A stretch of 56,173 nucleotides of DNA, the filler included, from Catajapyx aquilonaris (taxonomy: Eukaryota): NCBI GenBank assembly GCA_000934665.2. It is 3 parts of 3 records of this genome, joined end to end, with 100 filler letters (N's around TTAATTAATTAA, not from the genome) between each part and the next. Parts side by side here need not be neighbours in the genome. Positions count along the whole stretch, not along the records: positions 1 to 18,556 come from JYFJ02006660.1; 2 more parts are not named here. One strand, given 5' to 3'. Under the pieces are notes generated by a model. The model was not told where the DNA came from and searched no databases. It was given only the letters and a program-made list of their open reading frames with translations. The position numbers and the translations under genes were made by a program. Below, piece after piece: positions 1 to 26,693 of this stretch (its first letter is position 1; every line of letters begins with the position of its first letter).

Positions 1-212
1 AGAGGGGAGAGGAGAGGGGAGAGGGGGGAGGAAAGGAGAGAGGGGGGAGACGCTTGTTCCACGTCACCGCCCAACGGCTTTGTTCCCTGGCTCTCTTGGC
101 TCTCTGGGAAGAACACGGCCTAGGCCTCGCTCCCCTAGCTCCAGTTTGGCTACACACAGCGCGTTTCCTTGCCGGAGACTCCCTTGCTCCAGTCTGAGTG
201 ATCTCCTCCAGC

Positions 213-249
213 ATGCCGCCCACGGGACCCAAGCCCAAGTTTCGGGAAG
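213..249 (+). CDS. MRG15-like gene exon 1 (MPPTGPKPKFRE)
   Basis: ATG at 213; donor GAAG|gtacgt; phase 1. Confidence 0.8.
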
Positions 250-1504
250 GTACGTGCGTTCTTTAGAGCTCGAAAGTGCTGGCTGTAGAATAGAACAATT
301 TTTGGAGGCCATGTTTTGCTCCCCCCCATCCGTCCCCATCTTCCATTGACCTTGCTGGTGCATGAGACTGATTTTTCATTTAATAAAGTTGGCCATGATG
401 GAACAGAGTATTGATGCTGCAGAAGAAAGGTTTTCCCATTCCTTATTGAGTAGGAGTCAGGAATGCGAGACCTACCCTAACAGCTTCTGCCTTCACATTC
501 ACAAGCTCACGAGAACCGAAATGCTTTCTCTGTGCCTGATTCTTGCAAGCTTTGGAACACCTTCATGTTCCAGAAAATAAGGGCGGAAATTTCTGAAAAC
601 TTGCATGCTTATCAAGGGTGATTAGGACTGAACCTAAGGGCCGTTTTCTCGAACAGTGGTTCAAATATAAACCCGGTTCAAAGCAGGGTTTAACCCTTCA
701 CAACAGCCTAACAACAATCAAATCAGAGGGATTAAACTGGCTTTGAACCCGGTTTACATTTGAACCACTGTTCGAGAAAACGGCCCTAAGAGGTGTAGGT
801 TATGCATTGTCATGCATTGCAGTATTAGCCTATTAGGAACCATGTGGAGGTGGCAATTTCGGTAGACTGACTCACTGTGTCTCTGGGCCACTGGCAGCTG
901 TTATTCTAGAGGTTGATCATCAAAAATAGCATCACACACTACTGAGACATCAGATGTTCTGCATCATTTGACATAAGGAATTAACGCTACCCTGCTAGAG
1001 TACTTCAATCAGGCTTTCTTGTGACATATGACATAAAATTATTTTAAATGCACCAGTATTTGTGCAATTTGGGTGCCAATTGAGGTGACATGTTAAATTT
1101 TTGAAATGGATAGCAATTGATGCACTTTCCATGAACACCATGTATTAGTTTTTCAGCAGAATGTATGACTCCATGGGTGCATGAGTTGACAGGAGTGAGC
1201 ATCTGCAAATTTTACTTATACCAATGTGATCTCAATGTCGAAGCACACAGTGTATCTTATGGGAGAGTTCTCTTTAACATGTCAATTGGCAAGAAATTGT
1301 ATTGTCACATTGCCATTGTTGTCATTAATATTGCCAACAGGCATTACCAACAGGGCTAAATGCATATTTGTATGGAGCTCTCTTGAGCATCACTCCCTTA
1401 TTGTGTAACCTGCAACCTTCCAACACTCATGCAAACATTTTTTTAAATTTTTTATTTACATTTCTCCCCCTAGCCCAACTAACTGAACTGGGTCCTAAAT
1501 GACC

Positions 1505-1550
<46 letters not shown>

Positions 1551-2320
1551 GTGTGTTTCTCTTCTACTACCCATGCCATGCAGTGTCTCTTTACTGTACT
1601 TGCGTGGCTTATTGCACTAAAAGTAACTCAACCACATTTCAACCAATGCACCATGGGATACAGTACTTCATGAGATGTTTGGACCAGGAGAAAATCATGA
1701 CCACATTATTATGAGCTACCTTTTACATTGCCATTTTCTGCCTTGTTTCAACTATGAAATTGAGTAATATCTTAATTTTCAGGTGAGCAGGTTCTCTGCT
1801 CATGGGGCTCCCAAATTTACGAAGCAAAAGTTCTGGAGGTCCGCCCAAAGCTCGTATATGTGTGGTATGCACTGCATTTTCCTGGGTGGAGCAAGAAGTA
1901 AGATGACTGATCTGTTCTGACTGAGTGAATGTGCTGACTAAATGTATGCACACTATCTTGCAGATGGGATACTTGGGTGAAGGAGGACAGGCTAATGGAA
2001 TGGAATCCAGATCATCTTAAGAAGCAAAGGGAACTCCCGCAGGCCCAGGGAGCCCACCCGTAAGTAAACGTCTGCTGCAAACCTTTCGATGTAATGTCGT
2101 TTTTTTTAGATCTTGAGAATTTATTAGTCATAACTACTTACAGATTTAGGCCCCAAAAATCTTGAAAATGAGGATTTCCAATACCAAAATTAAGGGTACC
2201 ACCTGCTTCAAATCTTTGGTGAGAAAAGCGAATTTTAAATGCTAAAATACATTTATCTGGGTCAGATCTTTTCCTACCACACCAATAATTTTTTGTATTA
2301 GAAAATGGATTTCATTACAT

Positions 2321-2379
<59 letters not shown>

Positions 2380-2434
2380 TCATCATCATCATCATCATCA
2401 TATGTAATGAAATCCATGATGATGATGATGATGA

Positions 2435-2499
<65 letters not shown>

Positions 2500-4213
2500 T
2501 CAAATAGTGCTTTTCCCCTGGGTGCATAATAATCTCAATGAATCCCTCCTGAGACTTAGCCAGAGATGACCCAAATCCACAAGATATGAAAGGGGCTGCC
2601 TATTCTCCACTTAGGGTTTTCTACCTATTTGACCAAGCATTAATTTAATGATTTACATCATTTAGCCATCACATTTTTTCTAGTGGTGATAGGTGATAGG
2701 CAATTTCAGTAGTGCAAAGCGTTTCATTGCAATCTATTCTATGCTATAGCATCGAATGTGGCATGACAGAGACAGGCTTGTGGCTAGTGTTAATGGAAAC
2801 CTTGGGTAGCATCAGAATGATAGTACAATTGAAGACCTGAATTGCAAGAGGTCCCAAGTCCGTCCAGGAATGAAAACTTTTCAGGAGAGCCAAAAAATCG
2901 TACAACCTCCCTCCTTCTGATCTTCTCTATCTTGGCAAACAGTGAATCGCAAGGTAAAAAACTGTGCCCACTTGTTGGAAAATAGTGGTGCACAGTACTA
3001 AACCTGCCTTCCTGCATGGAAAAACATCACATGTCCATTGAAGTGGGATATTCCATGCAGCAGGAACCAAGGATAGCCAAAATTCCGTGATTCCTTGTGG
3101 TCTTGGGATGATTTTGCATGCGGGCCAGATGAGTTCTTTGCTATAGAACAACTTGGCGACAAAAAAGCAAATTGACAGAAAAATGGACTTGGGACCTTTT
3201 GCAATTCAGGTCTTCAATTGGTGACAATTTCAATATTCACCCCTTGACCATTTTTGGCACAACTGCCTGAAAGCAACAGGATATGGGATGGGTTTTTGCA
3301 GGATTCAATATAAAGCAAGGCACTGGTGGCTTGCTTTCAATGTTCATGGAGAATGCACTTGAATAAACCTTGCACTTCAAGCCATGATTTGTATTGCTAA
3401 TGCATATTGAATTATGAATGTTTATGCAGCAACTGGTTCTGACCATTGTATTTCAGGGAGAAGGTTGAACCCACAAAGAGAAAGAATACGAGTGGACATG
3501 ACTCTCAATCATCACAGAAGAAACGAAAAGGAGTTGAGAAAGCAGTCCCATCACCTGCATCTCTTTCCAATACATCATATCAACTATCTCCTGGATCATT
3601 TCCTAGTACTTCGACATCTAAACCAACTCCACCGCATAAGCCAGCTTCAGTGAGGTTGAGGGGACGAGTTCAGAGAGCAGTGGCATCCCCTCCATCCGGT
3701 CCAAGTACATCAAAAGGTGAACCTAGGCTGTCGCCTAAGGCAGCGTCAGGTGCTAAAGCTGCATCTACGCTTCGTGCTAAGGCCATGAGGAAGAGGTTGT
3801 TGAGTTTCACCAAAACCTCCAAGCTTGGAAAGGGGGCCTCAAGTTCAAGTTCAATCTCAAGTTCGAGTTCAAGCTCTGTGCTCAGATCCTCTATGGGGAA
3901 AGGTGAAGCCTCATCTCAAGCCTCCAGTTCTAGCTCACCCTCAAGAAACACTAGGCTGTCGCCTAAGGCAGCGTCAGGTGCTAAAGCTGCATCTACGCTT
4001 CGTGCTAAGGCCATGAGGAAGAGGTTGTTGAGTTTCACCAAAACCTCCAAGCTTGGAAAGGGGGCCTCAAGTTCAATCTCAAGTTCCTCAAGTTCGAGTT
4101 CAAGCTCTGTGCTCAGATCCTCTATGGGGAAAGGTGAAGCCTCCTCTCAAGCCTCCAGTTCTAGCTCACCCTCAAGAAACACAGCAGCTTCCTCTGACAG
4201 CACAACCAGATAA
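213..4213 (+). CDS. MRG15/MORF4L1-like chromo-barrel (Tudor-knot) protein with Ser/Lys/Arg-rich tail and no MRG domain; 4 coding exons, about 334 aa
   Basis: Exons 213-249, 1783-1897, 1964-2059, 3457-4213; all GT-AG with phases 1,2,2; total 1005 nt. Spliced N-terminus MPPTGPKPKFREGEQVLCSWGSQIYEAKVLEVRPKLVYVWYALHFPGWSKKWDTWVKEDRLMEWNPDHLKKQREL resembles MRG15 (MAPKQDPKPKFQEGERVLCFHG..YEAK..HYSGWNKNWDEWV..LQKQREL). Confidence 0.85.
638..786. mobile_element. PIF/Harbinger (Tourist-like) MITE
   Basis: Long TIRs GGGCCGTTTTCTCGAACAGTGGTTCAAAT.../...ATTTGAACCACTGTTCGAGAAAACGGCCC flanked by TAA on both sides. Confidence 0.85.
1507..1546. repeat. (CT)n microsatellite
   Basis: About 20 CT units. Confidence 0.95.
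1783..1897 (+). CDS. MRG15-like gene exon 2 (chromo barrel core GEQVLC..YEAK..HFPGWSK)
   Basis: Acceptor ttttcag|, donor AA|gtaaga; chromo-barrel motif. Confidence 0.9.
1964..2059 (+). CDS. MRG15-like gene exon 3 (WDTWVKEDRL..KKQREL)
   Basis: Acceptor cttgcag|, donor CC|gtaagt; WDxW motif. Confidence 0.9.
2305..2498. repeat. Inverted (GAT)n/(ATC)n trinucleotide repeat complex
   Basis: GAT runs directly followed by CAT runs, twice, with unique arms ATGGATTTCATTACAT / ATGTAATGAAATCCAT. Confidence 0.95.
2790..3200 (-). mobile_element. Degenerate DDE/D DNA-transposase fragment (Sola-like) in intron 3 of the MRG15-like gene
   Basis: Peptide HHYFPTSGHSFLPCDSLFAKIEK matches the GHSFLPCDxxF..IEK motif of arthropod Sola-type transposases; flanked by stops and frameshifts. 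Confidence 0.55.
3457..4213 (+). CDS. MRG15-like gene terminal exon 4 (low-complexity basic Ser-rich tail)
   Basis: Acceptor tatttcag|G joins exon 3 in frame to ORF 3446-4213; TAA at 4211-4213; AATAAA downstream near 4455. Confidence 0.75.
3723..4181 (+). repeat. Frame-preserving tandem duplication (228/231 nt) inside coding exon 4
   Basis: CTAGGCTGTCGCCTAAGG starts at 3723 and 3951; copies near-identical apart from the Ser run. Confidence 0.95.
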
Positions 4214-4611
4214 ATCAGGTTTGTACTGTACTGTTCTGAACTAGAGAAGTGAATTTGGTGGGTGTTCCCCAGGGAAAGGACACTGGCAAGGATTGTACTG
4301 TAGGAAATCTACAAGATACTTATTTTGGTTTGGCAACTGAAATTTCTGTGCAGAGAGTGAGAGGTTATAATTATTATGTACAGAATGAGTCATAAAAATC
4401 AAACTGACACATTTGGCTGTAGATTGCACATGGCAGCAGTAATTGACTAGAACTAATAAAAAGGCACTTGATGCATGTGTCTCGTGGAGTGGAAGTAGTG
4501 ACTGTTGAAATTTTTATTAAATTATTATTCAATATATTCATTCTGCGAACACACAAGGTAGGAAACTGCCTAGGCATGTTTCATTTGATCTACTTTTGAG
4601 CCACTCATATA

Positions 4612-5327
4612 CGAGGTCGGTTTGAAAAGTTTTGCCTCCTATGCGATAACTTCGATAATACGCAAGATAATCAAATAAACTGTAAGTCTGGTAAAAGCTT
4701 GGAATGTCCTCTACCAGGCAGGGGGTGTCATTACTTATGCACTAGTCACCATCTCTATATCCACACGCATGCACCAACGTCTGACCAGTTGTTGCATCTG
4801 GTTGGAGAAGAAATCTTCTCCTGGCACCAGCAATGGGCATCTGGGTGCACCTCCACATCACTGGTGTAATGGTGAACCTTCAGATGTTCTTTCAGCTTTG
4901 TGAAAAGAAAAAAGTCGCAAGTTAAGAGATCCTGGTTGTATGACAATCGTACACCATGACAACGCTCGTCCACGCATGTGTCGACAAACGCAGGATGCAT
5001 TGCAGCATCAGACCACCACAGAGTCAGTATCTCTCACCTTGCGACTTTTTCCTTTTCGAGAAGCTGAAATCACACCTGAAGGGACACCATTATACCAGTG
5101 ATGTGGAGGTGCAATCAGATGTCCATTGCTGGTGGTGAGAGGAGATGCCTGATTTCTTCTCCGACCGGTTGCAACAACTGGTCCGATGTTGGCACACGTG
5201 TGTGGATAGTAATGAAACCCCCTGGTAGAGGACATTCCAAGCTTTCGCCAGACATTCAGTTGATGTAATTATCTGGTGTATTATTGAAATTATCACCTAC
5301 GAGGCAAAACTTTTCAAACCTACCTCG
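4612..5327. mobile_element. Non-autonomous mariner derivative built from two inverted 3' halves
   Basis: TA target duplication; TIR CGAGGTCGGTTTGAAAAGTTTTGCCTC; (S)PCDFFLFxKLKxHLK motif on both strands; HDNARP motif near 4955 on +. Confidence 0.9.
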
Positions 5328-5827
5328 TACATGCAGTGTGCATGCTCCACTGGAACATTTGCACTACAGTATGATTAGGGCCAAAAGGTGACATCTTATT
5401 GCTGAATATTGCTGAGGTGAATTTTATGCTGAAAATTGAATGCGGCTTTGCACAGAGAAACCGTGTAATTCTGACACTACTGGTTACAAATAACAAATAA
5501 CTTCTGTCATGGGGTATTTAACAGATTCATAGCTACAAGCAGAGCTATTATTGCAGGTGCATTTGTGAATGATTGTGATAAGACTTTTGAGTAGCAGTAG
5601 AAAATTTCATTTGCCACCAGTGTCATATTTCTCAGGTTGCTGGTCGCTTCCATGTACCAATGGCTGTGTTCCACATAGCATTTCATGACCGAATACAAGT
5701 ATATGCAGTGTAAGTGTGGCAACATTTGCTTTCATCAACGGCTTTCATTCGGTCAAATGTTCTATGTTGCATATTCTTTTACTTCCATTGCTCAATTTTA
5801 TAACTATGATGTAGTGTTCTTTGATGC

Positions 5828-5870
5828 TGCTTGAACCTGCTTGAACCTGCTTGAACCTGCTTGAACCTGC
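5828..5870. repeat. 10-nt tandem repeat (TGCTTGAACC)x4
   Basis: Direct reading. Confidence 0.9.
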
Positions 5871-8598
5871 AGTTGCATGGTAAAAATAGCTGCAGTTTGC
5901 CCTGCAATATATTCGATGAAATATGGTGTGGATCTGCCACGTCCAATACAGTAGTAAGAAATACCAATTGCAGGGGGTTGGAATATTAGGATGAAAAGGT
6001 GCAATTTGCACTCCAAAATTGAAGTGTTTCTCTGAAGAATCCCATATGTCAAGTGACAACAATTTTTCCGGAAACAAAAAAAACTGCCTATGGGTCATAC
6101 TGATTGACTTAGCCAGTCTGTTTTTTTTATTTTAGTGTATATGATAGACACTTGCATTCAACTATGCAAATTAAACACTACAATGTTATTTTAAATGTTC
6201 ATGATCTTAATTTGAAAATTGTGACATGGGATTTTTCCGGAATTATCACAAACACTACCTTATTTTCATGGAAATACGTACTTATATTAGCTTGTATGCA
6301 TAGATATATCGATGACACCAATTTCCTCATCATTTGGAAGGATAGAATGTCCTCTTATCAGACACAAGGTTATTGCAGTGCACCATCATGTAGATTGTAG
6401 AGGAACCAGACAACTGATAAAACTTTTCAGCTTTAGCAATAAACTTTAGCAATAAACAAGATGCAGTTCCTTTTCCTGCATGAGCTTGGAATTTTCCGTT
6501 TTATCGACACACTCTGCAATCCTGTACACAAAGTTGTTGCATGTACTGCATGTACTGACAAATAGTCTACTACGCACTACAAGTATACTCTCCACCTTTC
6601 CGCTTAGGTCAGGTCCTAATGATGAGTTGAATCATATTACTCTTGATTTTCTAATTTTAGAGTACAAGTTCTCCAGCCTCTAGGTTCGTATGGTATTTTT
6701 ATATACATATTAATTTAACAAAAAAACAGCCAGTCCCATGGGGCCCCTATACTCCTGCCCCCCCCCCNCCCCCCCCTCCCCGGCAACTGCCCAGCTAGCC
6801 CATACGGTAAGACGGGACTGGCTAAACCCAGTAATTAAAAATTTCCACTCCAAGAAAACAATTCACACTCCAGATAAAGTTTGGGGTGCAAACTTTGCAC
6901 ATGGACCGAAAATTTAAGATTCAAATAATTGCAGGGGTCGAATCTTAAATTTTTTGTCGATGTGCAAAGTTGCAATTATTTTAACCACTACCAAATGCAA
7001 CCCTAATCTGATATCCTGTTCCAGTGGCAAACATTGCACTGTGTGCGAGTCCTGGCTACCTGGCAACCTCCCCTCCCCTTCCCTTTCTCATGTTTAAGGG
7101 GGTCAGGACTGCCCAAAACCTGCTTTGTCTCTCTTTCCAGATGATACCTCCCAGAGCGCCCCTTGCTTCAAGACATGTCCAAGAAGATCAGGTGGCTGAG
7201 CCACATTTTTATATAACTTCCATTTTGGTTAAAAGCACTCAGTGAAAAGTTGATCCATTCCCCTTCTATGTTTGGGGTCTAAGAGTGTTGTGTGCTTGAA
7301 CTGATATGTTTTAACGTGGAGTTTCACATTTTAAATGTTGCCAGGTCGTGATAATGTACCGTTCTGGAAGAGGTGTAAGCTGAGCTGTGATGTTCTCATT
7401 GAATGCAAGCAGGGAAAAAAAATTGTTTAAGTTGAAAGCATATAGTTAAAGTGAAACTTTTTATTATGGTATTTTGTGTGCAATCTTGCAAGTTCCATAG
7501 CATTCCTTTAGTTATTAGTAGTTAATTCCAAGACTGTTGCCAAAAGAATGTTGGAAAAAAAAGGCATCAGGACTGACCTGATCAGTTACTACTAGTAGTG
7601 TGATCTTACATGAAGCCTTCACAGATACTGGTCATGTGAGTTGCATGATGCATCTTTTAAGTACATTTGTAAACACTGCCAGCAAAACATTAAGATTCCA
7701 GCACATTAAAAAATTTATACTAAATAAATTATTATGAACAGTTAAGTTCCATATTTTGGGAATGAACCTAGACCAGCGGTTCTCAAACTTTTCCACATCG
7801 GCCCCCCCTAGAAAGTAATTTCAGATTTCAATTAAACTTACCATTCCGTCAGTGAACTGTTTTTTGTTTTTTCCCAAAACTGATGGAATCTTAATGTTTT
7901 CATCGTAACCATTCAACATTGTTTCAAGTAAAAATAAGGAAACAAATACAAATTGTTTATTTTTTCCATTTCCTGTCATCACTAATAATAATAAGTACCT
8001 ACTCATACTTATGTTAACCAAGTTATTCAGTGAATAGCTGGTCATTCCCATTCTGTGTTTTGGGGTCTTATCTGTTGTGTTGTGTGCCTCAATTGATGTT
8101 CTTATGTGGAGTTTCACTATTTTCAATGTTGCCAGCGCATCATAATTTACCATTCAAAAAATAGCTGTAATTTTAGCTTGTAGATGCATTTTTTCGGCAT
8201 TTTACATTCAAAGGACCACCACGAGTTAAAATTATTGCGATATGCTGCAAAAACCTGAAAGGTACCATAGTATGGGGTGACTTCTGGCGCTTTTTGCCAG
8301 TTTCTCAGCTGTCCCATGAAGACATATTGGTGGAAAATTCAGAATAAATTAACTTAAACAGTAGGAAATGTCCTTTATTGAATACCATAACAATTATTCA
8401 CATAAAAGTTGTTTTTTTGATCCTAAAATATATCATACTTGCTGTTCGGAGTCACCCCACTCAGTGTGGTGTCTTCGGGCACCCCTTTATTTCACGTTGT
8501 AGGATGGGTCCACACATTAATGGTGCAGCCTTGGACATGTATTCATGCTTTTAAAAACTCAAAAAGGTCACCTCCAAATAAATGGTGTTGGTACAGTA

Positions 8599-8760
8599 CA
8601 GTGTCAGACATTAATCGAGACATACTGCTAGGGACATTTTCCAAAGCGGCAGAAGAATGAATCTTCCTCGTATAGCTTGCACTATCCATATCTTCTATTT
8701 GTTCTTGTGCGGCTGTGGAAAATGTCGCTAGCAGTATGACGCGATTAATGTCCAACACTG
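8599..8760. mobile_element. Tc1/mariner-type MITE (short copy)
   Basis: TA-flanked TIR CAGTGT..GACATTAATCG.GACATACTGCTAG; same family as 13524-14036. Confidence 0.75.
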
Positions 8761-9484
8761 TACCAATACCTGCTGTATCTCACAAGGGACACACATATTT
8801 TATACAACAGATATGAACAGCTGTATTGGCATATTCATTCCACATGAGCATCATTGATGTCACTAAAGATAGAACACCCTCTGTGAAGGACTCTGATCTT
8901 CGCCAATTTGCAAACAACCTGGGTCACTATAAGACCTTGGTGTCCAGATACTGATGATTCATGTTGGTGAAAGAAACATAATTCTTCTTCCACCAACTTT
9001 TTTTTGCACATGAATTTGACCTGGAACTGTTTTTTGATGCCGACTCAGCACACTGGACTAACCCTGCACTCAGTTTCTTTTCCTCCTCGAAAGTTAATAC
9101 AGGTTGCCCTCTGTGTTTCTTAGCATGCTTGTTTCAAACCATGTCTGAAATGGTGCTGCATGGGACCTGTGTCTTTTAGGCTGATTTTTAGCTGCCCTGA
9201 TGTAAAGAACTTTGCATTTCTCATCGGTCAAAGCCCATTCACGGTCCTCAGACTTGTAGGGTTCGTAAGACCCCCCCCCACCCCCCCCCACCCCCAACTC
9301 TGCTGTACTTCTTACCCATATCCGAAGTCACTCCACAAAATTACAGAAAGGTACGAAACGTATAGAATTTACAACCCTGAATATTTGTTTCAACCAATAC
9401 TCTGGGACAAAGGAGAGGACTCATGACACTACAAATCAGCTGTGGTGCAGTTTACATCCATGCAGTAGGGAAGTGTGGGCACTA

Positions 9485-10494
9485 CTATCCGTTTATTTAA
9501 CATAGAGCCCTGTGTTTGACTCTAAATAACTCCCAGGCAAATTATCCAAAAAAATGAAGTTATACATCGTTCGAAAGCTTGTTTAAATACACGTTACATA
9601 TATGCGAGTTGTTTTCCTATCGTCAGTCTCTAATTTTTCATCTTAAAAAGAAGGTGGAAAAGTGTCATTTTTTGCCTAGTTGCCAACGTTGCACCGCAAA
9701 GTGAATTTTTTATGACACTTTCAGGAGGTCAAAAAAATCCCCCTGTGAACCCTGGGTAGTGCACATCTTTGTCTATCTAATGATATATTTGAAACATTGA
9801 GATCGTCACTTCTGTAATCATAATTAAGTTAATTGCACACCTCTGTTATCTCGGCCGTTTATAATCCGAATTACTTCGCGAATGTATCGACGGCAAGCCA
9901 GAAATGTGCGTGATAAGATTACATTGTGCTCTATTACACTAAAAATTTTAAAAGTATTGTTTTAGTAAGTTTAATAGAAAAGGACTCCGCCCGCTTTCTG
10001 GCGGGAATAGACGGCGATACTTTTAAATACGTTTAAAATTTTTAGTGTAATAGAGCACAATGTAATCTTATCACACACATTTCTGGCTTGCCGTCGATAC
10101 ATTCGCGAAGTAATTCGGATTATAAACGGCCGAGATAACAGAGGTGTGCAATTAACTTAATTATCATTACAGAAGTGACGATCTCAATGTTTCAAATATA
10201 TCATTAGATAGACAAAGATGTGCCCAGGGTTCACAGGGGGATTTTTTTGGCCTCCTGAAAGTGTCATAAAAAATTCACTTTGCGGTGCAACGTTGGCAAC
10301 TAGGCAAAAAATGACACTTTTCCGCCTTCTTTTTACGATAAAAAATTAGAGACTGACGATAGGAAAACAACTCGCATATATGTAACGCAGATTTAAACAA
10401 GCTTTCAAACGATGTATAACTTTATTTTTTTGGATAATTTGCCTGGGAGTTATTTAGAGTCAAACACAGGGCTCTATATTAAATAAACGGATAG
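9485..10494. mobile_element. 1-kb fold-back DNA transposon (about 470-nt inverted arms, TA target duplication)
   Basis: CTATCCGTTTATTTAA...TTAAATAAACGGATAG; arms near-identical, spacer about 9960-10015; inserted in acTAgt. Confidence 0.9.
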
Positions 10495-10712
10495 TAGTTA
10501 CTTTGACACATATCCAAATGTATGTCATTTTTGAGTAGGGAAAGAACATGTGTAAGAAGTACTCTCAATGTGCATCTGGCTTGCCCTAGTTGCTCATGTT
10601 GTATTCTGCAGCTCTCGAACCCACTCCCAATAAGTGTCCACACTGACCCAAGCCAAGAAAAGTGTAAGCATCTGAAGTCACCCCATTCTATGGTATTCTC
10701 TCTGACCTTATA

Positions 10713-11153
10713 CAGGGTGAAGGGAAACTCGAGGATAATCGCCAGGTAGACTGATAGTACTCGCAAAACTAATAATCTAGGGATGTGCAATTAGTTTTTG
10801 GCTCCGTTGCATAGTTAATGCATACAGCGCCTTTAAAGTGTAGAGGGCCGGATTGTAAAATATTAGGCAAAAACGACCAAGTGCATGGGTGTCGTACCCG
10901 GATTCTGACTAGATTTGATCACCTATTTCACATGGACGATGTGTTATGGACCCAAGGCTGGATTGTTCGGAGGCCCTCAGGCTGGCTTTTGCTTCTTTGA
11001 AGCTGGCGGAATGGATGTGACATCACGAAACTTTGGCGGCGCCGTATGCATCAACTATGCAACAGCGTCCAAAACTAATTGCACATCCCTATATTAGTTT
11101 TGCAAGTACCATCAGTCTACCTGGTGGTTGTCCATGAGTTTCCCTTCACCCTG
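10713..11153. mobile_element. Tc1/mariner MITE interrupted by a hAT-like MITE
   Basis: TA|CAGGGTGAAGGGAAACTC ... GAGTTTCCCTTCACCCTG|TA. Confidence 0.85.
10778..11091. mobile_element. hAT-like MITE nested in the previous element
   Basis: TIR TAGGGATGTGCAATTAGTTTT / AAAACTAATTGCACATCCCTA; 8-bp TSD only partly conserved. Confidence 0.7.
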
Positions 11154-11580
11154 TATAACCTAACCTGAACTGATGTGATCTAATCTAAACTAGGAAGATT
11201 TCACTGAAGGATAAGTGAAGGTTGGTTACATAATGTAAATTAACCAATCCAGACTAAGTCTGATTCAATAGATTTTAATCTGAATGTAAACTATGGCACA
11301 ATATTAGCAAATAATGAGATGCGGATATTTTATCAACTTTATTTGTCTCCGAATTGGTGGGAGAATAAATCATAAGTCTCTAACAACAGAACTTATGCAT
11401 AGAAAAATCTCTGGTCAAATTCTTCATTGATTGGGAGAGTGGTTTCCATTACCTTTATGTTAGAGAGAGAGAGGGGGAAAAAACATTTGATGAGCTTCCT
11501 GGCTCATATATGTATCTTTTTAAATGTTAGTGTCTGTTCCTAAGCTGTACTCATCTTTGTTTCTCACAATGGAAAAGGGA

Positions 11581-11807
11581 TTAATGCTTCCCCTCTTTGC
11601 AATTGTTACACACCCGCACAGGATCATTCCATCCACGACTGGGAACAGGTTCTCGACTGAGTGAACAACCATCACACACTCCTTGTCCGCAAGCCCTGCA
11701 ATGATGTATGGTGATATTGGAAGAAAACTTCACCCCGCACACGATGCATTTGATAATGTCTTTGTCTGGGATCCAATATGAGGGACGAGCTGTATCTTTG
11801 ATAAAAC
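11581..11807 (-). CDS. ZFYVE1: ZFYVE1 last exon (FYVE 2)
   Basis: FIKDTARPSYWIPD..HHCRACGQGVCDGCS..VPSRGWNDPVRVCNNC; TAA at 11581-11583. Confidence 0.95.
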
Positions 11808-14800
11808 CTGGAGAGGGTTTTAAAATTTATGAGTATGTGCAATTCTCACAGAGAAAACACTAACTTATGAGTTACAACACATTACATGATGTTCCCATGA
11901 ATTTTCTATTTATTGTCGAAGGGACATCACTTCAGTACAATTGTATGGTTTGCATTTGATGTAAACGAGACTGAAATCCAATGTTAGTTGAATGGAAGAA
12001 GATTTGACTCTTGCACAAAATCCTTTCCAGGAATTAAGGGAATCCTTTCAAGGAATCAACACTAATCTCGTATTTTAAATTTGAAAAATTTGCAAACACT
12101 TTCAAGCTCAGATTTCCTCAATTCAGGCAATACAAGAGAAAAATAACAGTTTCGTATTTGCAACAATTATTAAATTATTATTAGAAACAACCTCCACTAA
12201 AAATCATCACGCCATATGGTTAAATCAATTCTGGAGGGGTATTTGGAAAATTCTTCCATCATGCTCAGTGTGGAATGAGACAATTTATAATGCTGATATT
12301 ACTAGTGTATACAACCTTTTGGGTAGTCGAAAACAGATGCCACAGAACCAAGGGTTCCCAGTACAACTTCACCATATTTCCGTATGCGTACATCCTCTAC
12401 TGCTTCACTCAAAACTTCAATGTCACTGTCAGTACCTAAAACATAAGTAACTTTTAAGCCTTAACCCATTACTTCTGCTTTTAACCAAAGGACGCAGGTG
12501 TTGAAGAGATATGCTGGACCACAATTTTCCACGTGAACCAAAAAATACACCTGCTGCCCTTGCAACTATGCTCACCCCTAGATTTTCTGGATGCAGTACT
12601 TGGGCAGGGAGTAAGTGGATCTTGTGTGTCATCACTTGAGCCTGTGAATTGGATTGTGTTATGTGTTTGTTAAGTTATCAACTGCATTAGGACACTTGTG
12701 TTAGAAAATTGTGGTCCATTAGTAGTGGCAAAGCAGCAAGGCAGAAATCAGACCTTGAGCAAAGCACGCTTCACACACTCGAACTGGATTCAACCATCCT
12801 TTTTCTGGAACAGGTTTCGTTTTACTAGAGCAGTCCTCACAAAAACCTTCACCGCATGCTCGACAGTGGTGCTTCTCATCAGTTAATTCAAATGGTTTGT
12901 GGCATTTGTGGCAATGCTGAAATTGAAATAATTTAAGCATTTCGTTTACACTATTTAAGATCTGAGTGTCTCACTGTGATGTCAGAATTAGGTCTCCAAT
13001 ACTTCGGAGCAATCTGATCTGCTACCCAACTGGTCACTAACTTTGTTGGTCCCGCACTAACAGTGCTCACAGTTCCTGTAAGGTATGTGACTCCATCCAC
13101 TATCCTTTGGGCAGCATTCTGTGCTCCTTGAGAAGCATATTCCTGAAAATAAAAGTATAAACTTATATAATGCTTTTTACAGGACATATTTATAATCAAA
13201 CTTGGAACTAGTACTAGGCAATATTTCTACGGTCCTCCGCCATAATCTACTATTGCAGTGCTTCCCAAACTTTTTTTGTCGCATACCCCTTTTCAAATAT
13301 GTCAAGACAGTTTGTACCCCCACTCCGATCCTGTTACCTAACAATAGTAATTGCGGGGACTTACCAGTTAGCGTAATGGGCAAGTTTTCTCTCCTTCACA
13401 CAATATTTGGGACAAGTAGCGTCAATTTAAGCCTGAGATCTTTCTGAACACAGAGTCGATGATCTAATTTTGTTTTCATGGACGTTAATGCCGAAAAACT
13501 TGCTTCACATAAATAGGTAGTAGTAGTGTTGGACATAAATCGAGACATACTGCTAGCAACATTTTCCGAAGCGGCAGAAGAGCAAACCGCAGCAATGCAA
13601 TGAGCGAGACAGGCGTGCGAGCAAGAAGTGGTGGGCCAAGATGATGGGGTTCAGGGTTCTTGAAGCACATATAAGCATCACTTATTCATAATTTGGCATT
13701 TTTATTGCTGAATCACCTCATGACAGGGAAGAAACAGCCTTTGTTCCCCACGACACATTTAAAACAGTCAATTTCTAACCACCTTCAAAGTCTTGTGTAG
13801 AGTCGCTGTCACCAGAAATACGGTAGTCCTACTGTTGCACTGCGCCACAAGACTTGCCTCTAAACTTGCCCCATACGATTATACCTGCACATTTAAAAAT
13901 GCCAACCCTGCCCCTACACTACTTGCACAGCCCATCACTTCTTGCTCCTGTCTCACTCATTTCATTGCTTCAGTTCGTTCTTCTGCCGCTTCGGAAAATG
14001 TCACTGGCAGTATGCCTAGATTTATGGCCAACACTGTACACGAAGATGTGTACATGATATTAAATACTCAGAGCACAGGTTGCTAGGGTGGATAGTTTTC
14101 AATTTTTTCAGCCTATAATATCACAAGTGTTTTTGGCACAAATTCAAACAAACTTCCATTCGTGGAAATTTCGATGATCATTTCCGATCCTGCACTGACA
14201 TGTGCAAAAGTGGTAAAGAAATCTCAAATGGATTTCTGATCCAATTGACTGACATGTCCAATTGTCCATCTCTGGAAAATGATATCTAAACTGTTGCACC
14301 AATTGATTCATGTCCTCCAATACTAGTGTGTTGGCATTGAACACCATCTTCCACTGGCCCCTCTGCAGTTGCTTCGAAATTTGACATTTTTGAGTTCACA
14401 CTGTCATGTTGCTTCGTGAGTTTCAAAACTGAATGAAAACAGCATCAGTCAAATTCCTCTGCCATGTATGATGAATCTTCACTAAAATAATACAGTAAAA
14501 CTTCTATAAGTCGAATCTCCATGGGGCCGGAAAAAAACTTCGAGTTATAGAACATTCGAGTTCAAGAAGTTTGGATTTTTTAAAGCACAGAACTCTATAA
14601 GGAAGCCCACCTTTATACCCATCGACAAAAGGTGTTCAAAACTTAAAAATAACTGTCACTATCACACTTGCAATGTTCCTCGTCGTTTAGGGAAATTCGA
14701 CTTACAGAAATTTTACTACCGACCTCGGCTGGGTTCGAACCCGGCCGAGGTCGGTGACTTTTCTCCGGGTGGTAGAAAAGTGAGAGTGCGCCTTCCTTCG

Positions 14801-17716
14801 GAGGGGAAGTAAAGCCGTCGGTCCTGTGTGCTTGTGACATTGCGCGAGTGCACGTTAAAGATCCCCAGAGTGGCCATTGCCAGGAGGAGGACCACCCCCT
14901 GGCATTGGTGTTGAGCCTTGAGGCAGAAATAGGCCGACGTTAAGCCCCACTGAAAAGTGTATATGGAAGGGAGGCGAAGTGGCGCTGCAGTAATTTATGC
15001 ACCCACGGATGTTAAGGTACCAGGATCAAATCCCGCCCCATGTTCCCCCCCTTCACCTTGTGCAGAGTTTGTTAGAGGTCGTCTCTGGCTTCGTCTTGGG
15101 TGGTATCTCCGTTAAGACAAACCACCCAGGGGAGTTCACAAAATGACCACAGCACCGACATTGCACTGCACTATGCACATCCCCACCTGTCACTCTGCCC
15201 ATGGGCCCGGGCTTTTATTAAATAGGCACCAGGTACCATGCACACTGAACAACTCAAAATATAATAAAGGTCCATGTGATATACCCCTGTAGGGGTGAAA
15301 GCATTTCCCACAAATTATAATAATTAAAAAAAAATATTATTATTAATAATTATATGGTATCATATTGCCCTCTGACATCACCATTGTCAAAAAATAAACA
15401 TGCAGATGCAGGAATGCACCCAGGATGCTTTGTTCCTTCGTTTGTTGCCTAACAATGGAATCGAACATAGGTACCTATTGTAATAATGGCTCAATACAGG
15501 TCAGTGTGATATACCCCTCAGGGGGGTGAAAGCACTACCCAGGATTATTATTATTATTGTTGTTGTTGTTGTTGTTTTTCATTAATATCACTCCTACGTC
15601 CTACTACAAATTTTCATTGAGAAAAGAAAAAAACTGCCACAAAAACTCAGCTGTCAAAGGGTTAAGGGTATGAAGTCACTAACTAGATCAAAATAAGATA
15701 CTCCAGAAGCAAGAACTCTCTTCTACCAAACACGCCTGCCCATTCTCAATGCCTATAAGCAAGGTTAACGTAAAATACATGCAACTTGCTGTAAAACTTA
15801 CTCCAGGCCAAACATGCCTCGTTTCCATATCAACAGTTGTCTCCAGTGGATCCCTGTTTCCATACCAGTACTGCCTGCTGCGATATATTATTCCACAAAA
15901 TCTGCATTCCAAAACATACCTGAAAGCAAGCCATATCAGAGTGTAATTGTAGGCCAGCACACGCAACACACAAGACGCATCAACCAACATTCCCGCAGAA
16001 GGGCTCTGCAAACACAAGCATGAAGGAATGGCAGCTTACCCAGACCAAGCAAATTTGGCCAATCCCATCCATGTGGAATCATTTGAAGCTGATGTTTTTG
16101 GATCCACAATTGTTAAGCGACCCTGCTTACGGCATTCCTTGCACATGAACACACGGTTGTCATGCTCATGTTGGTACCTTAACAAAGTAAAATTGCAGTT
16201 GTGTGAAAACACTGAATTAATATAACCGTAAGATGTGGGAAAAAAACCACAACTTACTGGCACAACTTTTCTGTGTCATGAGGCATGCCTTCAGACTCAT
16301 GATTGATGCTCTTGATACATCGAGAGTCGCATACCAAGCACACAGATCCACAGGTGAAATATTTCTCTGGAAATGACATGTGGGAATACTGACTGATTTT
16401 CCCCACAAAGTTGTCATTCAGAGCCTAAAAGATCAAAAGGCAATAATGCTTTTATGCCCATTAGCATTGTAACCAAAAAATTTCACCTTCAAATTGTAGT
16501 AAACAATACTAGGTTGGCGCCACATTCGTGAGCACACATTCTTAAGTTCACGCTTTACAACCCCTCTTATAGGATTGAAGTCAGTGTTCTTTCCTGTAGT
16601 ACGAATGCCAACATATCTGAGATTGCTGAATGAATCAACATCCAAACCAAGCTTCTCTAGACGCTGCCGAAGGAGGATTTCTGTATTCATACCACTTTCT
16701 AAAAAATAAGAATAATGTAAATTATGCCCAACACTGAGAATATCAACAATCTTACTTGGCATAACAGGATCAGTGTGGCAGGTTTCATGGAACACAACAA
16801 CAACTGGCCCCAAATTGGAGAGTGGCTCTTTAGACTCTCGCTTCAAAGACAGTAATTTTAGCTTCTTGTAAAAATGATCTCGATATGATTTTGAAGCATC
16901 AGCCAGAAATCGAAACATATCATTATGGAGGCGTTCTGCACGTGTGCGATATATTACGACGTCACTTATTGCTAAAATCTGCAAGCATATTCATAGTCAA
17001 CTTCAGTTACAACATTGTCATTCTGTACTACCTCACCTTGAGCAAAAGCCTCGTTCTCTTATTTTCGTTGTTTGTTACACCTAAAATCCCTTCCGTGTCC
17101 AAAAATATGACCTTCATGTCCATATTATATGCTGCCCAGACACCAAGCGTGCACGATTCCTGTGAACTGCATGTGCGAAACACCTCTTCACCATCAAAAA
17201 ATGCATGATTCAGGCAATGGGACTTTCCTTCCCCTGTATTCCCAACTATGGCCACAACTTTAACTTGGTCACTGTCATCACATTGCAACTTTGTGCAGAA
17301 AGACTGCGCACTGGTCACCTGAAACATAATCCTTCATGTTAGCAGCATCTTTTCAAAGATTACCATTGATCAGTGGTTCCATCTTTCACCTTCAGCTTTT
17401 CTTCAGCATCCACCAGCAAAATACTGCGTCCATTGAACTCTTCAGGTGCACTGAGCCTAGGGGATGTATAATCCATAGTGGCATCCATTGCAACGTCTGG
17501 AATGCTTGACTTGGTGCTTTCTTGGTCAGATGAAATGTGTCCGTCACTACTTCGCTTGTCACTCTCTTTTCGAGAACACAAACTAACTGCTCCTGGATCC
17601 AAGGATTCCATTATGGCAGCTTGATCCTCCATCACATCCTCTCCAAAAGGGTATGACGCCCGAAATGGGCCGGGTGGAGAAAAAGCCTGTGTAGACTCGT
17701 ATTTTCCAAAGTTCAT
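11581..17716 (-). CDS. ZFYVE1: Zinc finger FYVE domain-containing protein 1 (DFCP1); 12 coding exons, about 736 aa
   Basis: Exons 17390-17716, 17037-17318, 16756-16978, 16487-16698, 16258-16424, 16040-16177, 15802-15919, 12975-13142, 12754-12916, 12576-12641 (optional), 12316-12435, 11581-11807; all GT-AG and phase-consistent. P-loop GNTGEGKS, DTEG, TRLLLKILAISDVVIYRT, YRSRQYWYGN and two FYVE domains (HHCRACG..RVC). Confidence 0.96.
12316..12435 (-). CDS. ZFYVE1: ZFYVE1 exon 11
   Basis: VRIRKYGEVVLGTLGSVASVFDYPK resembles human IARKVGEAVQNTLGAVVTAIDIP. Confidence 0.88.
12576..12641 (-). CDS. ZFYVE1: ZFYVE1 candidate 66-nt linker exon
   Basis: ttcacag|GC..AGG G|gtgagc; symmetric phase 1, no stop; not supported by homology. 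Confidence 0.55.
12754..12916 (-). CDS. ZFYVE1: ZFYVE1 exon 9 (FYVE 1)
   Basis: CHKC..KHHCRACGEGFCEDCS..RVCEAC. Confidence 0.95.
12975..13142 (-). CDS. ZFYVE1: ZFYVE1 exon 8
   Basis: QNAAQRIVDGV..PTKLVTSWVADQIAPKYWRPN. Confidence 0.95.
13524..14036. mobile_element. Tc1/mariner-type MITE (long copy) in a ZFYVE1 intron
   Basis: About 130-nt inverted arms matching the 8599-8760 family. Confidence 0.75.
14725..14870 (+). mobile_element. 5'-truncated tRNA-derived SINE
   Basis: B-box GGGTTCGAACCC followed by CCTTCGGAGGGGAAGTAAAGCCGTCGGTCC, a core I recognise from insect SINEs. Confidence 0.6.
14968..15310 (+). mobile_element. tRNA-derived SINE (diverged copy)
   Basis: Collinear with 36016-36307 (GTCTCTGGCTTCGT, GGGAGTTCACAAAA, CGACATTGCAC..GCACATCCC). 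Confidence 0.7.
15802..15919 (-). CDS. ZFYVE1: ZFYVE1 exon 7
   Basis: YVLECRFCGIIYRSRQYWYGNRDP..HVWPG. Confidence 0.95.
16040..16177 (-). CDS. ZFYVE1: ZFYVE1 exon 6
   Basis: YQHEHDNRVFMCKEC..PKTSASNDSTWMGLAKFAWSG. Confidence 0.95.
16258..16424 (-). CDS. ZFYVE1: ZFYVE1 exon 5
   Basis: ALNDNFVG..SFPEKYFTCGSVCLVCDSRCIKSINHESEGMPH (this frame is not in the ORF track). Confidence 0.92.
16487..16698 (-). CDS. ZFYVE1: ZFYVE1 exon 4
   Basis: FSNLRYVGIRT..TDF..RQPSIVYYNLK. Confidence 0.9.
16756..16978 (-). CDS. ZFYVE1: ZFYVE1 exon 3
   Basis: ILAISDVVIYRTRAERLHNDMFRFLADAS..LGPVVVVFHET. Confidence 0.92.
17037..17318 (-). CDS. ZFYVE1: ZFYVE1 exon 2 (P-loop NTPase)
   Basis: VVAIVGNTGEGKSHCLNH..QESCTLGVWAA..DTEG. 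Confidence 0.95.
17390..17716 (-). CDS. ZFYVE1: ZFYVE1 coding exon 1
   Basis: ATG at 17716, upstream acceptor at 17785; ends LLVDAEEKLK|gtgaaa; start codon choice uncertain. Confidence 0.75.
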
Positions 17717-18556
17717 GATTCATACTTCTTGAAGTTTTGCATGTCAGATGAATGATGTACCTTGAGCAATGACAATCCATCAACCTAGAAAAACAAAATA
17801 TGCACGTAAGCAAGGACATTTTTGGAATGCCCATCAGTTAAAGGTCCAGTTAAAGGTGTATGCCATCTACAGTAGCCTACATGGTAGAATATCAAGGAGG
17901 AGATATTTTCTCATTTTGGCTAAATCATGGAGACAAGAAAGCATCTGCATTTACGAGCTTATATTACCCTGATCCATTCCTATCAAACATTCAAGTGGTG
18001 ACATCACATGACGAAATGCACGAGCCTATTGGAGTCCACCCTTTGCCTCAATTGCTGTGAAATTTTCGCTGGGCATCTCCATGGCAATCAGGGTTTTAAG
18101 GTGGGGATATAGAGAATCCGGACTTCGAGTTCCAACTCTGGCGGAAAGAGGAGACAGTGGATCCCACCCTCCCTACACAAAAGAAGGGTCACGTTTGCTG
18201 ACCATTCCCTCTAGGCACAATAAAAACCGTGAAAATTAGGGTTCCCCCAACTTCTAGTAGTTCTCAAATCAGTCAAATTTTGACAAAATCATTATTTGCC
18301 GAAAGGTTATAGCTAAACATAAAAATCAGCTTCACTGGTCAGGAACACCAATTTTTTGCTCATTTTTGGGTGCTTGTTACAACATCACTTAAAATTTCAC
18401 GTATGCAAATGACTTTTAAAAATACTATATTAAGAATATGGGAAAAGTACCACACACGTGTAAAAGAAAGGTCAGTTACACTTCCACAAAAAAAATCGGT
18501 TAGTTGTTGTTAGCGAGATTTTTACTCCCCATTCTCTTTATCCCCCCCCCCCCCCC

Positions 18557-18656
18557 NNNNNNNNNNNNNNNNNNNNNNNNNNNNNNNNNNNNNNNNNNNN
18601 TTAATTAATTAANNNNNNNNNNNNNNNNNNNNNNNNNNNNNNNNNNNNNNNNNNNN
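18557..18656. other. Artificial scaffold linker/gap
   Basis: N44 + TTAATTAATTAA (stop in all six frames) + N44 = 100 nt. Confidence 0.97.
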
Positions 18657-25985: not shown

Positions 25986-26693
25986 TTCGTCATTTAATTA
26001 TAAACTTTATAGCACATAGCATTTACATATTGGAACACTAATTTGATGGACCAGCCCCACAATCTGCGAATACCTTCTACTGTCTCCTACAAAAGAACAA
26101 AATTGCTCACTTTGAGGCCATAGGATCCGTTTCGCGCATGCGCACTTGACTAAACTTGTTACCAAATAATTTGTGTAATCGTACCGAAAAAAATGAGTAA
26201 TTAATTATAATTACTCTGGGCCCGCATATGGACCCTTTCTCGTCATAGCTCCCATGAAGATGCATTCATGAAGGTGGGCGCACCGTGCACGCGTCGTCTT
26301 CATGCCCCCTAGAAGAAACAGCTGGTAGTCGCTGGTACCGGACTTGACTTGCCCCTCTTTGGGATACTCTCCTGCACATTTTGTGCCTAAATTGGTACTG
26401 TTCTGGGGTGTTCTCCTCTTCGTAGCTCTCAATTCATTTTAAAAATGACGGTGGCCTTGGTTTAAGTACTAAATGTAAAAGTAATGAAAGTGATTTGATG
26501 CCCATTGTGCACTACTTGATATGCGACTTCATATGGTATGACAGCATCTGATATTTATTCATCACATAATTGATGATGAACGTTTCAATTCTGGCGGAAA
26601 ATGACTATTTAATTGAAGCAAAATTTCCATTGACTTTAGGAGGCTGCACACACCTCTATGAATACATATGGGTCAAATTATGTACTATACAGC

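What the first reader, a model, noticed from the sequence alone, without database searches (positions are those of the whole stretch)
213..4213. Hidden MRG15-derived gene: chromo-barrel reader fused to a basic Ser-rich tail, MRG domain missing
Seen: four GT-AG exons splice in phase to a stop-free 334-aa protein; the first three are too short for the ORF track. Known: the first ~75 aa follow MRG15/Eaf3 from the start (PKPKFxEG..VLC..YEAK..HxxGW..WDxWV..KQREL), and MRG15 normally ends in an MRG domain that links it to NuA4/Tip60, Sin3-HDAC and PALB2. Here the stop follows a low-complexity tail, and I see no MRG-domain exons before the convergent ZFYVE1. Inference: a lineage-specific 'reader-only' paralog that could compete with MRG15/MSL3 for methylated histones or compact chromatin.
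Basis: partly seen in the sequence, partly recalled or inferred. Interest (0 to 1): 0.8.

Follow-up and report, generated by a model that had tools for sequence, protein, structure and literature searches.

The report
MRG15-like reader gene without MRG domain
An animal (arthropod-like) genome carries a four-exon gene whose first 83 residues are a copy of the histone-mark-reading barrel of MRG15, but which ends in a disordered, basic, serine-rich tail in place of the domain that normally ties MRG15 to its enzyme complexes; whether it is expressed is untested.

Summary
Exons 213-249, 1783-1897, 1964-2059 and 3457-4213 all have GT-AG borders and splice to 334 codons plus a stop. Exons 1-3 align without gaps to MRG15/Eaf3 residues about 2-80. 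All five aromatic-cage positions stay aromatic.

Exon 4 encodes 251 residues with no relative in any search. It is about 30% Ser with pI 12. It is open in one frame only, while the other five frames carry 5-25 stops. It contains a very young in-frame tandem duplication.

None of the 424 plus-strand reading frames scanned downstream hit the MRG domain. A convergent ZFYVE1 gene ends by 11.6 kb.

Not settled: expression (no RNA run was listed), conservation, and whether a full-length MRG15 exists elsewhere, because no genome is held.

The main rival (0.3) is a young relic with no function. MRG-less chromo-barrel proteins exist in databases, so this is a new variant of a known kind and of moderate interest.

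The parts
213..249 (+). Exon 1: start codon and 12 codons plus 1 base (MPPTGPKPKFRE, G split), donor GT at 250
   Evidence: borders, phase; the frame 198-263 hits only the MORF4L1 N-terminus in the PDB (PKPKF.EG aligned, E 0.52 and 1.8, weak alone).
1783..1897 (+). Exon 2: strands 1-4 of the chromo barrel (spliced residues 13-51), holding cage positions W20, Y25, F45, W48
   Evidence: PF22732 positions 5-50 of 78, E 5.4e-4; PF11717 positions 5-42 of 55, E 1.7e-3; fly MRG15 2lrq residues 17-53, E 3.6e-7, no gaps; human MORF4L1, E about 2.7e-4.
1964..2059 (+). Exon 3: last cage tryptophan (W52), last strand and the long helix of the barrel (spliced residues 51-83)
   Evidence: PF22732 positions 53-77 of 78, E 6.5e-3. 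S. pombe Eaf3 residues 47-73, E 1.2e-4; fly MRG15 residues 55-82, E 3e-4; human MORF4L1, E 4e-3.
3457..4213 (+). Exon 4: 251 codons of basic Ser-rich tail plus stop TAA 4211-4213
   Evidence: 0 stops in frame against 5-25 in the other five frames; 3 of 20000 shuffles of 3458-3950 stay open; tail 30% Ser, pI 12, K+R 45, D+E 7; no family, homologue, PDB or Atlas match.
3518..3532 (+). KKRKG, a likely nuclear localisation signal (spliced residues 104-108)
   Evidence: Read from the translation. The assignment as an NLS is inference from the classical basic-cluster pattern (recalled).
3725..3952 (+). Tandem repeat copy A, 228 nt = 76 codons
   Evidence: identical to copy B except for slippage in the Ser run and two synonymous third-position changes.
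3953..4183 (+). Tandem repeat copy B, 231 nt = 77 codons
3734..3814 (+). Predicted basic helix in copy A (exon-4 residues 93-119)
   Evidence: single-sequence AlphaFold2; the 10-residue blocks 101-110 and 111-120 average pLDDT 80 and 75, and the rest of the tail is mostly below 55.
3962..4042 (+). Predicted basic helix in copy B (exon-4 residues 169-195)
   Evidence: the 10-residue blocks 171-180, 181-190 and 191-200 average pLDDT 66, 85 and 62.
4455..4460 (+). First AATAAA after the stop, 242 nt downstream: candidate polyadenylation signal
   Evidence: Pattern match only.

Best explanation
This is a real protein-coding gene that arose by partial DNA-level duplication of an MRG15 (MORF4L1/Eaf3-family) gene. 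It kept the start codon, the first three exons with their introns, and so the whole chromo barrel.

Downstream of exon 3 it has one long terminal exon. That exon encodes a nuclear-targeted, disordered, basic Ser/Ala/Lys-rich tail with two copies of a predicted basic helix.

Likely mechanism:
- The barrel recognises methylated H3K36 on nucleosomes through its aromatic cage.
- The polycationic tail adds non-specific DNA or nucleosome affinity, and its many serines make that affinity tunable by phosphorylation.
- Without an MRG domain it cannot dock to the MRG-domain partners of MRG15, named from general knowledge as NuA4/Tip60, Sin3-HDAC (Rpd3S), Ash1 and PALB2. It would therefore occupy or shield H3K36-methylated chromatin rather than recruit enzymes.

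Shown here: the gene anatomy, the barrel homology, the kept cage, the open frame, and the absence of MRG exons in the window. Inferred: expression, histone binding, DNA binding by the tail, and competition with MRG15/MSL3.
For: - All six splice sites are GT-AG and in phase.
- Exons 1-3 align colinearly and without gaps to MRG15.
- The human 362-residue MORF4L1 chain 8bpa_D matches exon 2 at residues 15-51 and exon 3 at 92-119. Its extra segment therefore sits exactly at this gene's intron 2. That fits a conserved intron position and argues against a retrocopy.
- The cage positions named for MRG15 are Y26, Y46 and W49, with H21 partly filling the pocket (PMC1747190 passages). MRG701 has five cage residues, H37, Y42, Y62, W65 and W69, which the paper calls conserved with those of MRG15 (PMC5084153 passages). 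W53A abolishes nucleosome binding (bioRxiv 10.1101/2020.04.30.070136 passage). By the and 35 offsets, the gene has W20, Y25, F45, W48 and W52 at these positions, so all five are aromatic although overall identity to fly MRG15 is only 20 of 37 and 11 of 28 residues.
- Helix contacts L70, K72 and L76 are kept (L69, K71, L75).
- Exon 4 is open in one frame only, and 3 of 20000 shuffles stay open. All six Ser codons are used, so the Ser richness is not a single microsatellite.
- The duplication is in frame, 228 and 231 nt.
- AATAAA lies 242 nt after the stop.
- 0 of 424 plus-strand frames hit MRG.
Against: - There is no expression evidence of any kind.
- No relative of the tail, and no close relative of the barrel, turned up in 5.8 and 1.84 billion proteins, so there is no evidence of conservation or purifying selection.
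- The two repeat copies differ by only two synonymous changes outside the slippage zone. That is too few to test selection, and it shows the tail is still changing.
- Two barrel-core contacts named in PMC1747190 are replaced by polar residues (F20 to S19, L24 to Q23). H21 is replaced by W20, which could block rather than extend the pocket.
- Each exon alone scores below Pfam's gathering threshold.
- The exon 3/4 junction has no homology support.
- Low-complexity sequence is less likely to hold stops than random sequence.
Confidence: 0.45

Rival explanations
1. This is a young relic of a partial MRG15 duplication with no selected function. The promoter and exons 1-3 were copied. The frame happens to run on through unrelated low-complexity DNA, and any product is an unstable by-product on its way to becoming a pseudogene.
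For: - The tail has no relative anywhere.
- It is low-complexity and mostly disordered: mean pLDDT 51.7.
- It carries a near-identical tandem duplication, so it is in flux.
- The barrel has lost residues that human and fly share, including two core contacts.
- No conservation could be shown.
Against: - There is no frame break or lost splice site in any of the four exons.
- All five cage positions are still aromatic.
- The 164 non-duplicated tail codons are open in one frame only, with 3 of 20000 shuffles staying open.
- The duplication kept the frame.
Confidence: 0.3
2. This is the 5' part of an ordinary full-length MRG15 gene. The MRG exons exist but lie outside what can be seen, through misassembly or a very long intron spanning neighbouring genes. 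Exon 4 would then be an alternative terminal exon or a false exon.
For: - A published precedent exists: the Magnaporthe EAF3 gene was wrongly annotated as a chromodomain gene plus an MRG gene (PMC11343894 passages).
- Donor-like sites lie inside exon 4.
- The exon 3/4 junction has no homology support.
Against: - 0 of 424 plus-strand frames in 2021-56118 hit the MRG domain, although the same kind of scan caught the 31- and 37-residue barrel exons and the FYVE exons.
- No N run lies between 4213 and the ZFYVE1 3' end. There is a single N at 6768.
- ZFYVE1 converges on it from 11584.
- The barrel is unusually diverged for a sole orthologue.
Confidence: 0.1
3. This is gene fission. The species has no fused MRG15. 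The barrel (this gene) and an MRG-only protein are encoded separately, and either work together or have divided the ancestral roles.
For: MRG-only relatives are known: mammalian MORF4L2/MRGX and MORF4 (recalled), and a chromodomain-less Eaf3 form noted in earlier finding e1-7503409 (unchecked). Nothing here shows that a full-length copy exists.
Against: - There is no evidence for an MRG-only gene, because the genome is not held.
- The barrel's departure from residues that human and fly share suggests relaxed or altered constraint. That is more typical of an extra copy than of the only copy.
Confidence: 0.1

Closest known systems
MRG15 / MORF4L1 / Eaf3 (Drosophila MRG15 chromo domain 2lrq; human 2f5k, 2efi, 8bpa)
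   Same: The N-terminus, the chromo barrel and its helix are colinear without gaps. All five cage positions are aromatic. An intron sits where the human long isoform carries its extra segment.
   Different: No MRG domain in the window. Identity to fly MRG15 is only 20 of 37 residues (exon 2) and 11 of 28 (exon 3). H21 is replaced by W and Y46 by F. The tail is unrelated to anything known.
MSL3 (Pfam PF22732, MSL3_chromo-like)
   Same: It is the best-scoring Pfam profile for exons 2 and 3. The Phe at the Y46-equivalent cage position is also MSL3-like, but that point is recalled and was not tested.
   Different: MSL3 also ends in an MRG domain. The PDB hits point to MRG15/Eaf3; no MSL3 chain was among the hits.
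MORF4L2/MRGX and MORF4 (mammals)
   Same: They are truncated members of the same family that keep only one of the two domains (recalled; earlier finding e1-7503409 names them too).
   Different: They are the mirror image: they keep the MRG domain and lack the barrel.
Database proteins made only of chromo barrels: P0002 (Caenorhabditis tropicalis, named Tudor-knot domain-containing protein, 451 aa; Pfam matched three Tudor-knot stretches, and I read four barrel-like repeats in the sequence) and P0001 (Pavlovales sp., 522 aa, two barrels with K/S/A-rich linkers)
   Same: MRG15-type barrels without an MRG domain. P0001 also follows its barrels with basic, low-complexity segments.
   Different: They have several barrels and come from unrelated lineages. 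Identity to exon 2 is 51% and 33%. They are uncharacterised and share no tail.
C-terminal tail of linker histone H1 (what the tail works like; recalled, not tested)
   Same: A disordered S/A/K/P-rich polycation with SPK-type motifs. Such tails bind linker DNA and are regulated by phosphorylation.
   Different: No sequence relation was found. This tail is much richer in Ser (30%) and has no globular winged-helix domain.

Membership tests
MRG family (MRG15/MORF4L1, Eaf3, MSL3) | C-terminal MRG domain (Pfam PF05712) | tested here: not met
   0 of 143 plus-strand frames of 30 aa or more in 2021-15289 at E<=1. 0 of 140 and 0 of 141 frames of 40 aa or more in 15324-56118 at E<=0.01. 0 of 112 minus-strand frames of 45 aa or more in 4244-26438. 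Exons under 30 aa and sequence outside the window are not excluded.
MRG family (MRG15/MORF4L1, Eaf3, MSL3) | N-terminal chromo barrel colinear with MRG15 | tested here: met
   Exon 2 aligns to fly MRG15 residues 17-53, the junction codon to residue 54, and exon 3 to residues 55-82, with no gaps. The exon 1 frame aligns to the human N-terminus.
MRG family (MRG15/MORF4L1, Eaf3, MSL3) | Aromatic cage for methyl-lysine (human H21, Y26, Y46, W49, W53) | tested here: met
   By the alignment offsets these positions are W20, Y25, F45, W48 and W52. Three are identical, Y to F is conservative, and H to W is a real change. Residue roles come from PMC1747190, PMC5084153 and bioRxiv 10.1101/2020.04.30.070136. 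Binding itself was not tested.
MRG family (MRG15/MORF4L1, Eaf3, MSL3) | Orthology or paralogy to the species' own MRG15 | not testable with these tools
   No genome is held. Notes on other windows of the genome mention no MRG15.
Pfam Tudor-knot (PF11717) / MSL3_chromo-like (PF22732) | Score at or above the curated gathering threshold | tested here: inconclusive
   Each exon could only be scored alone: 20.4 and 16.9 bits against the 28-bit cut-off of PF22732, and 18.7 bits against 20.8 for PF11717. The two exons hit adjoining parts of one profile, and their simple sum (37.3 bits) would pass. The spliced protein could not be submitted.
Expressed protein-coding gene | Transcript with the predicted junctions | not testable with these tools
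   No RNA run was listed, so no reads could be laid.

The most novel reading that the evidence does not exclude
A natural 'reader-only' antagonist. A lineage-specific MRG15 offshoot couples an intact, possibly strengthened (H21 to W) methyl-lysine cage to a phospho-tunable, H1-like polycationic tail. It sits on H3K36-methylated nucleosomes and keeps NuA4, Rpd3S/Sin3, Ash1 or MSL complexes off them. That would be a genetically encoded competitor of H3K36me reading, perhaps acting in the germline or at one developmental stage.
Probability: 0.15. Interest if true: 0.65.

Novelty: new variant of a known kind. Interest (0 to 1): 0.4.

Why it matters
MRG15 and Eaf3 are usually described as adaptors: the barrel finds H3K36-methylated chromatin and the MRG domain brings in acetylases, deacetylases, methylases or repair factors. 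It would also be a possible endogenous competitor of those complexes.

It is a clean example of new-gene birth by partial duplication with a new terminal exon. If it proves unexpressed or decaying, it is an ordinary truncated duplicate.

Tried and rejected
- **RNA evidence.** The look-up of sequencing runs on 150-4400 listed no RNA holder.
- **Whole genome.** None is held, so I could not search for a full-length MRG15 or other copies.
- **Exon-4 protein.**
  - Word-based search of 5.8 billion proteins (candidate lengths 138-440 aa): none at E<=1e-3.
  - PDB: none at E<=10.
  - Atlas: no usable hit.
  - Pfam: nothing.
- **Exon 2.**
  - Too short for the word search.
  - Re-sent as its 41-residue stop-to-stop frame with 'longer': no candidate.
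  - Exhaustive phmmer: 4 hits at E<=1e-3. Two are spurious (a TPR protein and a MucBP protein) and two are barrel-only proteins of distant lineages.
  - Atlas: best score 0.82, to chromo-barrel clusters, a lead only.
- **Long six-frame stretches to Pfam.** I replaced them with lists of stop-to-stop frames.
- **Earlier notes of the scan.** Nothing near the finding, by sequence or in relatives. Nothing on MRG15 in this genome.
- **Literature.** Three searches found no paper in the held library describing a natural MRG15 paralog that lacks the MRG domain. Subscription journals are not covered.
- **Selection test on the two repeat copies.** Only two synonymous differences, too few to use.
- **Retrocopy origin.** Rejected, because the introns are present.
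- **Other copies.** None in the window.
Full report
**What is in the sequence.** The four stated intervals are 213-249, 1783-1897, 1964-2059 and 3457-4213. Each is bounded by AG and GT as claimed. They join to 1005 nt, which reads as 334 codons ending in TAA at 4211-4213. The extended splice signals are good by eye:
- Donors: AAG|GTACGT, AAG|GTAAGA and CCC|GTAAGT.
- Acceptors: each lies behind a pyrimidine run ending in CAG.

If intron 3 were retained, the frame would stop at once (CCG TAA at 2058-2063). That would give a barrel-only product of 83 residues.

- Exon 2 (37 aa) matches Pfam MSL3_chromo-like at profile positions 5-50 of 78 (E 5.4e-4, 20.4 bits). It also matches Tudor-knot at 5-42 of 55 (E 1.7e-3).
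- Exon 3 (31 aa) matches the adjoining positions 53-77 of the first profile (E 6.5e-3, 16.9 bits).
- Each exon is below the gathering score alone. Their simple sum would pass.
- Against all PDB chains, exon 2 is closest to the fly MRG15 chromo domain (2lrq, E 3.6e-7, residues 17-53, no gaps, 20 of 37 identical by my count). Human MORF4L1, S. pombe Eaf3 and plant MRG701 follow. The consensus-TPR hits in that table are repeat artefacts with no stretch passing on its own.
- Exon 3 hits S. pombe Eaf3 (E 1.2e-4), fly MRG15 residues 55-82 (E 3e-4) and human MORF4L1.
- The 22-residue frame around the start codon hits only two chains in the whole PDB, both MORF4L1. It aligns M..PKPKF.EG with the human N-terminus (E 0.52 and 1.8, weak alone).

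Taken together, the three junctions restore an unbroken alignment to MRG15 residues about 2-80. That is strong support for junctions 249/1783 and 1897/1964.

The 362-residue human chain 8bpa_D matches exon 2 at 15-51 and exon 3 at 92-119. The shorter constructs leave a single residue between the two matches. I recall that this longer human form carries an alternatively spliced insert. If so, the insert sits exactly at this gene's intron 2, which fits a conserved intron position. The gene is therefore a DNA-level copy and not a retrocopy.

Three papers give the roles of the cage residues:
- PMC1747190 (passages read) names Y26, Y46 and W49 as the hydrophobic pocket of human MRG15, with H21 partly filling it.
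- PMC5084153 (passages) lists a five-residue cage in MRG701 (H37, Y42, Y62, W65, W69) and calls it conserved with those of MRG2 and MRG15.
- A bioRxiv preprint (10.1101/2020.04.30.070136, passage) reports that W53A abolishes nucleosome binding.

With the offsets, the equivalent residues here are W20, Y25, F45, W48 and W52. All five are aromatic. The helix contacts L70, K72 and L76 are kept.

Two of the strand contacts named in PMC1747190 are replaced: F20 by S19 and L24 by Q23. Several residues that fly and human share are also changed (R to Q, FHGPL to SWGSQ, WDEWVPE to WDTWVKE).

The domain has therefore diverged a good deal while keeping its functional cage. I read this as a paralog under altered but not absent constraint. 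That reading is an inference. PMC1747190 notes that SMN Tudor has a Trp at the H21-equivalent position, so H to W could complete the cage rather than block it. I cannot tell which.

**The tail.** Exon 4 contributes 251 residues. Its properties:
- The 250-residue stretch after residue 84 is 30% Ser, 11% Ala and 10% Lys, with 45 K+R against 7 D+E and pI 12.
- It matches no Pfam family.
- It has no hit among the 8000 candidates scored from 5.8 billion proteins, restricted to lengths 138-440 aa.
- It has no PDB chain at E<=10 and no Atlas cluster.

It still looks like coding sequence:
- The frame has 0 stops in 251 codons, while the other five frames have 6, 20, 25, 5 and 20.
- The 164 non-duplicated codons stayed open in only 3 of 20000 base shuffles.
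- All six Ser codons are used.

It contains an in-frame tandem duplication, 3725-3952 and 3953-4183 (76 and 77 codons). The two copies differ only by slippage in the Ser run and two synonymous changes. The duplication is therefore very recent, and it gives no power for a selection test.

Single-sequence AlphaFold2 gives a disordered chain (mean pLDDT 51.7) with one helix of about 27 residues per repeat. Those helix regions reach block-mean pLDDT of 62-85. A KKRKG cluster near the start of the exon looks like a nuclear localisation signal. RKRLLS and RLSP look like sites for basophilic and proline-directed kinases. Both assignments are recalled patterns and were not tested. AATAAA lies 242 nt after the stop.

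**No MRG domain.** I scanned stop-to-stop frames against Pfam:
- 143 plus-strand frames of 30 aa or more in 2021-15289, at E<=1.
- 140 and 141 plus-strand frames of 40 aa or more covering 15324-56118, at E<=0.01.
- 112 minus-strand frames of 45 aa or more in 4244-26438.

None hit PF05712. The same procedure caught the 31- and 37-residue barrel exons and the neighbouring FYVE exons, so it can see exon-sized pieces. Exons shorter than 30 aa would escape.

The downstream neighbour on the minus strand has three recognisable parts:
- Two FYVE exons, at 11584-11826 and 12722-12970.
- A P-loop exon, at 17031-17333.
- A 185-residue exon whose 113 database hits include many named ZFYVE1.

Between the stop and that gene there is only a single N, at 6768, and no assembly gap. 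No other copy of any part of the gene lies in the window.

**What could not be learned.**
- No genome is held.
- No RNA run was listed.
- The species and its close relatives are not in the protein databases. Over most of the exon the ZFYVE1 query reaches only 34-45% identity, with spiders, molluscs and echinoderms among the hits; a few hits covering about 40% of it reach 51-61%. The lack of database relatives for this gene therefore says little.
- Notes on other windows of the same genome describe arthropod-type genes (unchecked). That fits the fly protein being the best PDB match.

**Comparison with what is known.**
- By domain content the gene cannot be filed as an MRG-family member, because the defining MRG domain was tested and not found. 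By descent its head clearly comes from that family.
- The mirror-image truncations, the MRG-only proteins MORF4L2/MRGX and MORF4, are known (recalled).
- Barrel-only proteins exist in databases. The exhaustive search with exon 2 returned a Caenorhabditis tropicalis protein (three Tudor-knot stretches by Pfam; I read four barrel-like repeats in its sequence) and a Pavlovales protein of two barrels with basic low-complexity linkers. Neither has an MRG domain. Both are uncharacterised and unrelated in lineage.
- Three literature searches found no description of a natural MRG-less MRG15 paralog in the held library.
- One caution from print: in Magnaporthe a chromodomain 'gene' and an MRG 'gene' proved to be one EAF3 gene (PMC11343894 passages). 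Here no MRG exons follow, so that explanation would need sequence outside the window.

**Verdict.** The evolutionary and functional half is plausible but untested. I put:
- 0.45 on a functional reader-only gene,
- 0.30 on a young relic without function,
- 0.10 on hidden MRG exons or misassembly,
- 0.10 on gene fission.

Interest is moderate. It is a tidy and testable case, but truncated duplicates are common and nothing yet shows that this one is used.

Noticed in passing
window 11584-17719, minus strand: A convergent ZFYVE1 (DFCP1) gene. It has two FYVE exons (11584-11826, 12722-12970), a P-loop/GBP-like exon (17031-17333) and a 185-residue exon (16436-16990). The database hits covering most of that exon are only 34-45% identical (spiders, molluscs, echinoderms among them).
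   Followed up: partly
window 40522-47240, minus strand: A KCNQ-type potassium channel gene. KCNQ_channel C-terminal exons lie at 40522-41283 and 41348-41695, and an S5-pore exon at 46541-46882.
   Followed up: partly
window 634-790, 2305-2417, 2826-3220: Three MITE-like inverted repeats lie inside the gene's introns: a 157-nt palindrome, an (ATG)n/(CAT)n hairpin with inverted flanks, and a roughly 400-nt element with 36-nt terminal inverted repeats that are 97% alike.
   Followed up: no
window 26000-30000: A GC-rich block (GC 0.53-0.57 against about 0.41 around it) with ORFs of 110-180 codons in several frames on both strands. Two of the long minus-strand frames had no hit at E<=0.001, and no plus-strand frame of 40 aa or more had one at E<=0.01. 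Its nature is unknown.
   Followed up: partly
window 18557-18656 and 37526-37625: Two pairs of 44-nt N runs, 12 nt apart in each pair, of identical layout at both places. This may be masking of a repeated element.
   Followed up: no
P0002 (Caenorhabditis tropicalis) and P0001 (Pavlovales sp.): Uncharacterised proteins built only of repeated MRG15-type chromo barrels, with no MRG domain. P0001 is an internal near-perfect duplication of a barrel plus a Lys/Ser/Ala-rich linker.
   Followed up: partly
window 1-50: A GA-rich repeat (AGAGGGGAGAGG type) lies about 160 nt upstream of the start codon. It is possibly a GAGA-type promoter element, but the window starts here, so the promoter is cut off.
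   Followed up: no
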